Shown here piece after piece: positions 60,850 through 61,330 of a stretch of DNA of 64,000 bases. A program made the translations under genes and the position numbers. Position 1 is the stretch's first letter, and each line of letters opens with the position of its first letter. The stretch comes from Elusimicrobiota bacterium (GTDB lineage: Bacteria; Elusimicrobiota; UBA8919). Where the stretch lies: positions 4,088 through 68,087 of the forward strand of contig JAQUMH010000002.1 in the NCBI GenBank assembly GCA_028718185.1. Direction: 5' to 3'. The notes under the pieces are model-generated. The model was given only the letters and a program-made list of their open reading frames with translations. It did no database searches and was not told where the DNA came from.

Positions 60850-61330
60850 TTTCGTTCGAGATTGCTTCGCTAACGCCTACCTACCGTCATGCAGGCTCAC
60901 AATGACAAATCTGCCTGTCATTGCGAACTGACTCATCGTGAAGCAATCTCATAAGTTATTATACAAATCAGTCCACCTTGAATTCATAATTTCAACTAAC
61001 TTAATTTTCTTATTTCTTGAACCCGCTTTTATTTGTTTTTCTCTGCTTATTGCATCTACTGGATTTTCAAAAACTTCATAATAAACAAGTTTATTAATGT
61101 TGTATTTTTCAGTGAAACCTTTTACAATTTTATTTTTATGTTCATAAACTCGCTTTTTTAAGTTGCTTGTTATTCCCGTATAAAGAACTGTATTGTTCTT
61201 GTTTGTTAAAATATAAATTGAATAATACTTTTTCATTTGAGATTGCCCCATAAAAGGGATTTACAACTTCGTCATCCCAAACATTGAGATTGCTTCGCTA
61301 CGCTCGCAATGACTTCATGTTTAACAAACA
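60850..61330. mobile_element. candidate parent element of the MITE family: GIY-YIG nuclease gene bracketed by the MITE terminal inverted repeats
   Basis: Left arm gtcattgcgaactgactcatcgtgaagcaatctc (60920-60953), preceded by an extra gagattgcttcgc / cctacctaccgtcatgcaggc / caatgaca...tgtcattg module. Right arm gagattgcttcgctacgctcgcaatgac (61284-61311). The 303-bp GIY-YIG ORF lies exactly between them. Confidence 0.5.
60949..61251 (-). CDS. GIY-YIG nuclease family protein (UPF0213/YhbQ-like small endonuclease)
   Basis: 100 aa. YSIYILTNKNNTVLYTGITSNLKKRVYEHK matches the GIY...YIG motif with the catalytic R and E (RVYEH). Confidence 0.8.
   Translation of the reverse strand: MGQSQMKKYYSIYILTNKNNTVLYTGITSNLKKRVYEHKNKIVKGFTEKYNINKLVYYEVFENPVDAISREKQIKAGSRNKKIKLVEIMNSRWTDLYNNL

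What the first reader, a model, noticed from the sequence alone, without database searches (positions are those of the whole stretch)
60850..61330. GIY-YIG nuclease gene sits exactly between the two arms that define the window's MITE family: candidate autonomous parent element
The short palindromic element at 3589-3679 has arms gtcattgcga...gcaatctc and gagattgc...tcgcaatgac separated by only 14 bp. At 60920-61311 the same two arms are about 330 bp apart, in the same relative orientation, and the gap holds an intact 100-aa GIY-YIG (UPF0213-like) endonuclease ORF. This is the relationship expected between a non-autonomous MITE and its protein-coding parent. GIY-YIG domains are the nuclease of homing endonucleases and of some transposon families. 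The element also interrupts what looks like a Bat-like vWA operon (vWA, DUF4159, insertion, vWA). A GIY-YIG-mobilised TIR element with MITE derivatives would be an unusual mobile-element type.
Basis: partly seen in the sequence, partly recalled or inferred. Interest (0 to 1): 0.75.

Follow-up and report, generated by a model that had tools for sequence, protein, structure and literature searches.

The report
Ssn hairpin nuclease with its repeats
This is a small GIY-YIG gene of the Ssn family (single-stranded-DNA nucleases described in 2025), sitting among the short hairpin repeats it is predicted to recognise; the pairing is real and widespread, but it was already known, and nobody has shown that the nuclease moves the repeats.

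Summary
A 95-aa GIY-YIG ORF (60952-61236, minus strand) lies between inverted copies of a 28-46 nt hairpin unit, GTCATTGCGAG…GAAGCAATCTC. The same unit forms the gene-less doublet at 3589-3678. The association is not chance. In 80 homologous loci from most bacterial phyla, 72 have a unit within 150 nt downstream and 61 upstream, against a background of 0.24 units/kb.

The system is already published as Ssn and its Ssn-related motifs (SRM) (Chenal et al., Nat Commun 2025). SsnA binds such a hairpin on one DNA strand and nicks a few nucleotides 5' of it.

The window protein aligns without gaps to gonococcal SsnA at 40% identity, with the catalytic residues conserved. The unit keeps the GTC and C flanks that are functionally critical in Neisseria. 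Its stem sequence differs, and the published SRM search pattern matches none of 425 units.

Three related Elusimicrobia lineages have an empty site, so the 545-nt cluster is an insertion. However, identical Ssn proteins sit at a single locus across many samples. That fits a REP/RAYT-like single-copy gene better than an active transposon with MITE offspring.

Verdict: a new member of a known kind. The mobility hypothesis stays open.

The parts
60952..61236 (-). ssnA-like gene: 95-aa single-domain GIY-YIG nuclease (ORF extends to the ATG at 61251 = 100 aa; stop TGA at 60949-60951)
   Evidence: Pfam PF01541, E 3e-16. Exact match to NCBI protein P0001, 95 aa. 40% identical without gaps over 90 aa to N. 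gonorrhoeae SsnA, E 2e-28, with Y8/Y19/E66 aligned to the mutated catalytic Y6/Y17/E64.
61286..61313 (-). SRM unit upstream of the gene, forward sense on the gene strand: GTCATTGCGAGCGTAGCGAAGCAATCTC
   Evidence: The same position and orientation (unit 3-60 nt upstream of the ATG) is seen in 48/80 homologous loci.
61239..61277 (-). Degenerate unit directly before the start codon: GATGACGAAG…GGGGCAATCTC, then aa-ATG
   Evidence: Read. A GAGATTGC match at 61239-61246. The relative L089 also ends its upstream composite repeat in …GAAGCAATCTC before the ATG.
60917..60950 (+). SRM unit immediately downstream of the gene, inverted relative to the upstream unit. Its GAGATTGC (gene strand) overlaps the stop codon TGA.
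   Evidence: The GATTGC of the downstream unit starts right after the TGA stop (offset 3) in 15 of the 50 loci whose nearest downstream unit is in this orientation.
60858..60906 (-). Further, partly degenerate SRM unit (GTCATTGTGAG…GAAGCAATCTC on the minus strand), tail-to-tail with 60917-60950 (10-nt spacer)
   Evidence: It does not fold better than shuffles.
60809..61353 (-). The whole 545-nt insertion between the DUF4159 gene (61354-62148) and the 684-aa gene (58754-60808). ATGA is present at both edges. There are 40 and 49 nt of non-repeat sequence outside the outermost units.
   Evidence: In L081, L083 and L085 (DUF4159 70-72% identical) the two genes overlap by ATGA, and those loci contain no units.
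3589..3678 (.). Gene-less head-to-head doublet: a long unit 3589-3634 (+ sense) and a short unit 3649-3678 (- sense), 14-nt spacer, intergenic
   Evidence: The long unit folds as a DNA hairpin with z = -3.7. The flanking genes are Peptidase_S41 and Peptidase_M23.
35175..35215 (-). Solo SRM unit, intergenic
   Evidence: Hairpin z = -2.2.
39703..39833 (.). Tail-to-tail doublet (39703-39736, 39749-39778) plus a dRS3-like hairpin (39809-39833), all in frame inside the CCA-adding enzyme gene
44063..44132 (.). Tail-to-tail doublet of a second unit class with an ATTCCC…GGGAAT stem (Neisseria NTS/dRS3-like): 44063-44087 and 44103-44132
   Evidence: Hairpin z = -5.0 and -5.3. The 25-mer AGATTCCCACTTTCGTGGGAATGAC is also present next to gonococcal ssnA.

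Best explanation
The locus is a member of the Ssn/SRM system. It consists of an ssnA-type gene, encoding a stand-alone ~95-aa GIY-YIG nuclease, embedded in a small cluster of its cognate Ssn-related-motif hairpin repeats.

Inferred by homology to the four enzymes characterised in PMC11893778:
- The protein binds the unit only when the DNA is single-stranded and only in the GTCATTGCGAG…GAAGCAATCTC sense.
- It reads the ATTGC/GCAAT stem together with the 5' GTC and the 3' C.
- It hydrolyses the strand a few nucleotides 5' of the hairpin.

Shown here:
- The units are dispersed in the genome as singles, inverted doublets and, in other genomes, alternating arrays, in the manner of REP/BIME repeats.
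- The gene-plus-repeat cluster entered this lineage between two formerly overlapping genes of a MoxR-DUF58-BatA-DUF4159 operon.

Inferred and untested: the repeats owe their spread and maintenance to the nuclease, as REPINs do to RAYT. The gene itself is a single-copy, position-stable partner rather than a frequently jumping transposase. In Neisseria the cellular role is restriction of incoming single-stranded transforming DNA. What it does in Elusimicrobia is unknown.
For: Family membership:
- Single GIY-YIG domain covering residues 10-82.
- 40% gapless identity to gonococcal SsnA, E 2e-28, with catalytic Y, Y and E conserved. Those residues were mutated in the paper.
- The UPF0213 structure 1ZG2 scores only E 0.003.

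Repeat association, from 80 loci across Cyanobacteria, Chloroflexi, CPR, Desulfobacterota, Bacteroidota, Omnitrophota and others:
- A unit lies within 150 nt downstream in 72 and upstream in 61.
- The inverted arrangement around the gene occurs in at least 40.
- The background is 0.24 units/kb.
- The paper reports the same pattern: 71% of homologues have a nearby SRM and 42% have one on both sides.

Unit anatomy matches the functional map of the NTS:
- The 5' GTC is conserved, and position -1 is G in only 3% of units.
- The C immediately after the stem is conserved.
- The loop or inner stem is variable.
- The stem is kept through double changes: ATCGC/GCGAT, ATTAC/GTAAT, ACTGC/GCAGT, ATTCT/AGAAT in Planktothrix and ATTCCC/GGGAAT.

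Insertion: empty sites in L081, L083 and L085. The relative RIFOXYD2_FULL_34_15 carries its ssn gene elsewhere (L089).

Position stability: identical proteins P0060 and P0038 each sit in one context across 24 contigs.
Against: - No biochemistry exists for this protein or for this unit class.
- The published SRM search pattern matches 0 of 425 units and no site in the window. Cognate recognition is therefore extrapolated across a different stem sequence.
- The short units that actually flank the gene (61286-61313, 60917-60950) do not fold better than shuffled sequence with standard DNA parameters.
- G·T wobble counts show only a weak strand asymmetry, 136 against 104. The one-strand reading is borrowed from Neisseria, not seen here.
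- The inserted 545 nt includes 40 and 49 nt of unexplained sequence outside the units, so the insertion mechanism is not defined.
- Only one ssn gene and about a dozen units are visible in 64 kb. Genome-wide copy numbers are unknown.
Confidence: 0.85

Rival explanations
1. The unit-gene-unit module is an autonomous transposon whose GIY-YIG protein is the transposase. The gene-less doublets are MITEs derived from it and mobilised in trans.
For: - Inverted units flank the gene in at least 40 of 80 loci.
- Spacing between head-to-head units is bimodal: 5-31 nt, or about 280-350 nt with the gene.
- Relatives have an empty site, and ATGA is present on both edges of the insertion.
- 60-78% protein identity across phyla suggests horizontal spread.
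- Units occur inside a coding gene.
- The Ssn paper raises the same idea as a hypothesis.
Against: - Identical proteins occupy a single context across many samples.
- There is one copy per ~10 kb locus, apart from one tandem duplicate in L032.
- I saw no target-site duplication next to the units and no homology between doublet spacers and the gene module.
- Units also occur singly, tail-to-tail and in tandem arrays.
- The gene also occurs in tail-to-tail spacers.
- 40 and 49 nt of extra sequence lie between the outer units and the ATGA edges.
- GIY-YIG enzymes hydrolyse DNA and have no known joining activity.
- The family is nearly absent from phages and rare on plasmids.
Confidence: 0.25
2. 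The gene is a free-standing homing-type endonuclease gene. It invades pre-existing palindromic repeats by cutting at them and being copied in by repair. The repeats would have an independent origin and function.
For: - The gene always sits in a spacer between two units, head-to-head or tail-to-tail.
- Its stop codon abuts the downstream unit precisely in many loci.
- GIY-YIG is a classic homing-endonuclease fold.
Against: - The unit sequence is nearly identical across phyla and travels with the gene.
- Each gene subfamily has its own unit class: ATTGC, ATTCT or ATTCCC.
- Characterised Ssn enzymes do not cut double-stranded DNA. Homing by double-strand break is therefore unlikely.
- 25-45 nt units are short homology arms.
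- The gene is single-copy despite many empty doublets in the same genomes.
Confidence: 0.07
3. Coincidence. A housekeeping UPF0213-type gene happens to lie next to unrelated REP-like or terminator-like repeats.
For: - Several of the short units fold weakly.
- Repeats of this kind tend to accumulate in intergenic DNA.
Against: - 72/80 and 61/80 loci have units within 150 nt, against about 0.035 expected per 150 nt.
- Relatives have an empty site.
- The published statistical association is independent of this work.
- No terminator-like site is predicted in 60700-61500.
Confidence: 0.01

Closest known systems
Ssn nucleases with NTS/SRM hairpin repeats (SsnA of Neisseria meningitidis; Chenal et al., Nat Commun 2025, PMC11893778)
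   Same: - A ~95-aa single-domain GIY-YIG protein, 40% identical, with the catalytic residues kept.
- The gene is flanked by inverted 20-50 nt hairpin repeats that are also dispersed in the genome.
- The unit has a 5' GTC, an A-T-T-started stem, a variable loop and a C after the stem.
   Different: - The stem is ATTGC/GCAAT with a conserved GAG/GAA internal loop and an extra variable inner hairpin. The NTS stem is ATTCCC…GGGAAT.
- The published SRM search pattern does not match these units.
- The host is an Elusimicrobia MAG.
- Nothing is known here about competence or transformation.
- One doublet lies in frame inside a gene, whereas the NTS is inside genes in only 2% of cases in N. meningitidis.
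REP/BIME repeats and REPINs with their RAYT (Y1 HUH) genes
   Same: - Short imperfect palindromes with an orienting conserved end.
- They occur singly, in inverted doublets and in alternating arrays.
- A single-copy, position-stable gene is flanked by its own repeats in inverted orientation.
- Each gene lineage has its own repeat class.
   Different: - The enzyme is a hydrolytic GIY-YIG nuclease, not a tyrosine HUH transposase that forms a covalent intermediate and can rejoin DNA.
- There is no GTAG/CGTC tetranucleotide tag.
IS200/IS605 insertion sequences
   Same: - The element ends are subterminal hairpins read on single-stranded DNA.
- There are no terminal inverted repeats in the classical sense and no target duplication.
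   Different: - In IS200/IS605 both hairpins are read on the same strand and the enzyme rejoins the DNA.
- Here the flanking units are inverted, so the forward sense is on opposite strands at the two ends.
- No joining activity is known.
Rickettsia palindromic elements (RPE)
   Same: Palindromic repeats inserted in frame into protein-coding genes, adding a peptide segment in a loop (window 39703-39833 in the CCA-adding enzyme). The Ssn paper lists Rickettsia among SRM-rich genera.
   Different: RPEs are 100-150 bp. I did not test sequence relatedness to them.
UPF0213 / YhbQ-type stand-alone GIY-YIG proteins (e.g. BH0048, PDB 1ZG2)
   Same: Same size and fold class. It is the closest solved structure by sequence.
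   Different: Only a marginal sequence match (E 0.003) against E 2e-28 to SsnA.

Membership tests
[quoted passage not shown] | Single-domain GIY-YIG protein of about 94-100 aa with no accessory DNA-binding domain | tested here: met
   PF01541 covers residues 10-82 of the ORF, and no other domain is found. NCBI annotates the product as 95 aa.
[quoted passage not shown] | Sequence homology to characterised SsnA (the paper used E < 1e-10), with the catalytic Tyr, Tyr and Glu present | tested here: met
   BLASTP against the N. gonorrhoeae SsnA orthologue gives 40% identity, no gaps and E 2e-28. Y8/Y19/E66 align with Y6/Y17/E64. The CDD model cd10448 itself could not be run.
[quoted passage not shown] | Gene flanked by hairpin repeats (SRM) that are also dispersed in the genome | tested here: met
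   Units lie on both sides of the gene and at 3589, 35175 and 39703. The same holds in 80 homologous loci.
[quoted passage not shown] | Repeats match the published degenerate SRM pattern HGTCWYN(0-2)YYVSBRHN(0-5)WNVSBRGN(0-2)RNCYNB | tested here: not met
   0 of 425 units and 0 window sites match, while the NTS control matches. The pattern is a search tool built from 29 genomes, not a definition. These units keep HGTC at the 5' end and C after the stem, but they have a G in the stem where the pattern demands pyrimidines.
[quoted passage not shown] | Binds and cuts only single-stranded DNA, only one strand of the repeat, a few nt 5' of the hairpin | not testable with these tools
   This needs purified protein and oligonucleotides. 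The sequence gives only a weak strand asymmetry.
   There is one copy in the window. Identical proteins sit in one context across 24 contigs each. No precise empty site was found in near-identical strains. An empty site exists only in relatives whose flanking protein is about 70% identical.
   ATGA occurs at both edges of the 545-nt insert, but 40 and 49 nt away from the outer units. No direct repeats were seen around 38 isolated head-to-head and 14 tail-to-tail doublets. Doublet spacers are unrelated to the gene module.
   GIY-YIG nucleases are hydrolytic (established knowledge). No recombinase is encoded in the insert.
REP/REPIN-RAYT system | Associated gene is a Y1 HUH (IS200/IS605-type) transposase | tested here: not met
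   The only ORF in the insert is GIY-YIG. The system works like REP-RAYT in layout but is not a member.
GIY-YIG homing endonuclease (I-TevI type) | Catalytic domain linked to a C-terminal DNA-binding domain; gene in an intron or free-standing in phage | tested here: not met
   The protein is 95 aa with no extra domain. TIGR01453 scores 18 bits against a cut-off of 56. No Rfam intron is present. There is 1 weak phage hit among 50,697 records.

The most novel reading that the evidence does not exclude
Ssn-SRM modules are true mobile elements of a new mechanistic class. A hydrolytic, hairpin-specific single-strand nuclease nicks 5' of inverted hairpins on opposite strands. Host replication or repair then copies the module, or gene-less hairpin doublets, into new sites, including in-frame sites within genes. 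On this reading the window shows one such insertion into a translationally coupled operon, and the ATTGC-class units found across many phyla are its non-autonomous progeny.
Probability: 0.25. Interest if true: 0.7.

Novelty: new member of a known kind. Interest (0 to 1): 0.35.

Why it matters
That confirms the pattern can be recognised without tools.

What this locus adds is modest but useful:
- It documents an SRM sequence class, Y-GTC-ATTGC-GAG-[hairpin]-GAA-GCAAT-C-TC, that the published search pattern misses. The class accompanies Ssn homologues in Elusimicrobia, Cyanobacteria, Chloroflexi, CPR bacteria and others, so the published 71% association is probably an underestimate.
- It gives a clean empty-site comparison showing that an ssn-plus-repeat cluster was inserted between two overlapping genes.
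- It shows a repeat doublet tolerated in frame inside an essential-type gene.

These points bear on the open question of how such repeats spread. A new enzyme-site pair could also be of interest for the single-stranded-DNA tools the Ssn authors propose.

Tried and rejected
- Rfam at gathering thresholds found nothing in the window. I dropped the idea of an intron or structured RNA around the ORF.
- Literature searches by arm sequence and by GIY-YIG with REP, REPIN, RAYT, MITE or UPF0213 found nothing relevant. The key paper surfaced only after I recognised dRS3-like units beside the gonococcal homologue.
- The supplementary tables of that paper are not held. I could not check whether ATTGC-class units or Elusimicrobia appear there.
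- I looked for a one-strand (RNA or single-stranded DNA) signature through G·T wobble counts and MFE asymmetry. The result was weak and not decisive: 136 against 104 wobble pairs, and 270 against 61 units more stable in the forward sense, a difference that loop parameters may partly explain.
- I looked for target-site duplications around isolated doublets and solo units and saw none.
- I scanned the metagenome collection for a precise empty site in near-identical strains and got 0 hits. The only other contig with the identical gene, L093, is the same locus.
- The promoter and terminator scan of the insert gave nothing above shuffles. The gene is probably read through from the operon.
- I considered structure prediction and skipped it. 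Pfam and the SsnA alignment already settle the fold, and no Ssn structure is in the PDB copy.

Full report
OBSERVATION

On the + strand, GTCATTGCGAACTGACTCATCGTGAAGCAATCTC lies at 60917-60950 and GAGATTGCTTCGCTACGCTCGCAATGAC at 61286-61313. They are 335 nt apart. They have the same relative orientation as the pair at 3589-3634 / 3649-3678, which is separated by 14 nt. Both end motifs are over-represented in the window: 11 matches against 2.8 expected, and 10 against 1.5, with no shuffle reaching either count.

The gap holds an intact minus-strand ORF with a GIY-YIG domain (PF01541, E 3e-16). NCBI annotates it from the second ATG as 95 aa (P0001, an Elusimicrobia MAG on a 301-kb contig).

- A further, partly degenerate unit lies at 60858-60906.
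- A degenerate unit lies at 61239-61277, directly before the start codon.
- The stop codon TGA overlaps the GAGATTGC of the downstream unit.

Each "arm" is a self-contained unit of 24-46 nt. Its layout is 5'-GTC, a 5-bp stem ATTGC/GCAAT, a conserved GAG/GAA internal loop, a variable inner stem-loop, then C-TC.

IS IT MORE THAN CHANCE?

A scan of one genome per species returned 554 confirmed relatives, of which 80 loci were kept. They come from Cyanobacteria, Chloroflexi, CPR/Patescibacteria, Desulfobacterota, Bacteroidota, Ignavibacteria, Omnitrophota, Zixibacteria and others, at 57-74% protein identity.

- A unit lies within 150 nt downstream of the gene in 72 of 80 loci, and upstream in 61 of 80.
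- The inverted arrangement (forward-sense unit, gene, reverse-sense unit) occurs in at least 40 under a strict pattern.
- The GATTGC of the downstream unit starts right after the TGA stop in 15 of the 50 loci whose nearest downstream unit has this orientation.
- The density elsewhere in the same loci is 0.24 units per kb.

Spacing between head-to-head units is bimodal: 5-31 nt, or about 280-350 nt with the gene. The association is therefore real and very widespread.

IS THE GENE RESIDENT OR INSERTED?

The flanking DUF4159 protein has orthologues at 70-72% identity in three other Elusimicrobia lineages. In all three the operon reads MoxR, DUF58, BatA/VWA, DUF4159, a 682-691-aa GATase1-like protein, then a TMEM260/TPR protein. 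The DUF4159 stop and the next start overlap as ATGA. Those loci contain no units.

In the window the two genes are 545 nt apart (60809-61353), and the gap is the nuclease-plus-repeat cluster. ATGA is present at both edges. However, 40 and 49 nt of unrelated sequence separate it from the outermost units, so I cannot call it a target-site duplication.

One of the relatives, RIFOXYD2_FULL_34_15, carries its own homologue (73% identity) at a different locus. There it is flanked on both sides by direct copies of a composite repeat.

WHAT IT IS

tblastn against plasmid records gave a 40% match in Neisseria gonorrhoeae. The DNA around that gene is full of GTCATTCCCGCGCAGGCGGGAATC units, the dRS3 repeats. 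That led to Chenal et al., Nat Commun 2025 (PMC11893778). The paper reports the following:
- It defines the Ssn family (CDD cd10448). SsnA of N. meningitidis is a 94-aa single-domain GIY-YIG enzyme.
- SsnA binds the NTS hairpin CGTCATTCCCGCGMAVGCGGGAATCYRG only as single-stranded DNA and only in that sense. It cuts a few nucleotides 5' of the hairpin.
- The three nucleotides before the stem govern cutting. The C after the stem is the most important base for binding. The loop is dispensable.
- 71% of homologues have such Ssn-related motifs (SRM) nearby, and 42% have them on both sides.
- Three further homologues cut their own repeats.
- In Neisseria the system lowers transformation by NTS-bearing DNA.
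- The NTS-ssnA-NTS layout resembles an insertion sequence, and REP/BIME repeats with RAYT transposases. The authors offer domestication of a mobile element as a hypothesis.

MEMBERSHIP

The window protein aligns to the gonococcal orthologue without gaps over 90 residues (40% identity, E 2e-28). Y8, Y19 and E66 align with the mutated catalytic Y6, Y17 and E64. The nearest solved structure is the UPF0213 protein BH0048, at only E 0.003. "UPF0213-like" therefore names the wrong subfamily.

The window unit maps onto the NTS feature by feature: a non-G base, GTC, a stem starting ATT, a variable middle, the stem complement, then C.

Stem pairing is kept through double substitutions:
- within this class, ATCGC/GCGAT, ATTAC/GTAAT and ACTGC/GCAGT;
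- between classes, ATTCT/AGAAT beside a Planktothrix homologue and ATTCCC/GGGAAT in Neisseria and at window 44063-44132.

One criterion fails. The published degenerate SRM pattern matches none of 425 units in my loci and nothing in the window, although it matches the NTS. That pattern is a search device built from 29 genomes, not a definition. I read the failure as showing a distinct SRM sequence class, not non-membership. The single-strand specificity cannot be tested here.

HOW IT LIKELY WORKS

- Shown: the gene-repeat association, the unit anatomy, the insertion and the dispersal of units.
- Inferred by homology: binding to the forward-sense hairpin on single-stranded DNA, with a nick 5' of it.
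- Inferred by analogy with REP-RAYT: the repeats depend on the enzyme for spread or maintenance.

The units behave like REP/BIME elements. They occur as solo units, head-to-head and tail-to-tail doublets, and tandem arrays of alternating units with periods of 106 and 121 nt. A doublet usually pairs a short unit with a long one, and units are homogeneous within a genome but differ between genomes.

Identical Ssn proteins from a Parcubacteria and a Deltaproteobacteria population each sit in a single genomic context across 24 contigs from many samples. Only one of 80 loci holds two full-length copies, and they lie in tandem. The family is nearly absent from phage records and rare on plasmids.

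This is the profile of a single-copy, position-stable partner gene. It is not the profile of an actively jumping transposase with MITE offspring. GIY-YIG enzymes hydrolyse DNA and have no known joining step. Any movement would therefore need host replication or repair.

CAVEATS

- The short units that flank the gene do not fold better than shuffled sequence with standard DNA parameters. The long units and the ATTCCC-class units do, with z from -2.2 to -5.3.
- Strand asymmetry in wobble pairs is weak.
- Only 64 kb of the genome is visible.
- The supplementary tables of the paper are not held, so I cannot say whether this unit class is listed there.

COMPARISON AND NOVELTY

The locus is a member of the published Ssn/SRM kind. 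It occurs in a phylum and with a repeat sequence class that the paper's main text does not describe. It works like REP-RAYT in layout but is not a member of that family, because the enzyme differs. It is not a homing endonuclease of the I-TevI type, having no DNA-binding domain, no intron and no phage context.

It is not supported by copy number, end structure or enzyme chemistry, and I put it at about 0.25.

VERDICT

This is a new member of a known kind, of moderate-to-low interest. The residual value lies in the missed SRM class, the clean empty-site comparison and the in-frame repeat insertion. All three bear on the still-open question of how these repeats spread.

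Noticed in passing
window 39703-39833, within the gene 39245-40225 (-): An SRM doublet plus a dRS3-like hairpin (AGATTCCCACTTTAGTGGGAATGAT, 39809-39833) lie in frame inside the CCA-adding enzyme / poly(A) polymerase gene. They add about 45 aa (…VIARSRATKQSNL…) in the loop after RRDFTINALA and split the PolyA_pol head domain match. 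Orthologues are 277-281 aa and lack the insert. This resembles Rickettsia palindromic elements. The Ssn paper says the NTS is rarely inside genes.
   Followed up: partly
proteins P0161, P0162, P0172, P0174 (alignment A1): Other Elusimicrobia orthologues of the same CCA-adding enzyme carry different short insertions. Some are in the same loop and some in two other loops (e.g. SFPPLKLWRTGIL…, HACSFWSASTVLMPE, PSFCEQRWDK). These may be further in-frame palindromic repeats. I did not check the DNA.
   Followed up: no
window 44063-44132 and 44155-44195: An intergenic tail-to-tail doublet of a second unit class with an ATTCCC…GGGAAT stem, i.e. Neisseria NTS/dRS3-like. Its 25-mer AGATTCCCACTTTCGTGGGAATGAC is identical to one beside the gonococcal ssnA gene (L088). 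The next 40 nt hold a degenerate unit whose inner hairpin is the reverse complement of that in 3599-3623. No second ssn gene is present in the window.
   Followed up: partly
all 80 loci and the window: The degenerate SRM search pattern published for the Ssn family matches none of the 425 ATTGC-class units and no site in the window. Published counts of SRM-associated homologues probably miss this class.
   Followed up: yes
L087 (Planktothrix agardhii plasmid p1, NZ_LR882964.1) 2190-3050: An ssn homologue (60% identity) sits between a type IIL MmeI restriction-modification gene and DISARM drmA. It is surrounded by a third unit class, GTCATTCTGAG…GAAGAATCTC, with a compensated stem, and by truncated GTCATTCTGAG copies in tandem.
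   Followed up: no
L032 3838-6469; L044 1045-1554: Tandem arrays of alternating forward and reverse units with periods of 106 and 121 nt. In L032 two identical ssn copies lie 1 kb apart inside the array. The organisation is BIME-like.
   Followed up: no
L093 (Logan contig SRR22315506_310004) against window 60200-61313: An independent assembly is identical to the window over 1.1 kb, and its contig ends exactly at GTCATTGCGAG. The repeat breaks short-read assemblies.
   Followed up: yes
window 20398-32976 (-): A single ORF of 4192 aa. Nearly all long ORFs in the window are on the minus strand, and GC skew is negative throughout. I did not examine this further.
   Followed up: no
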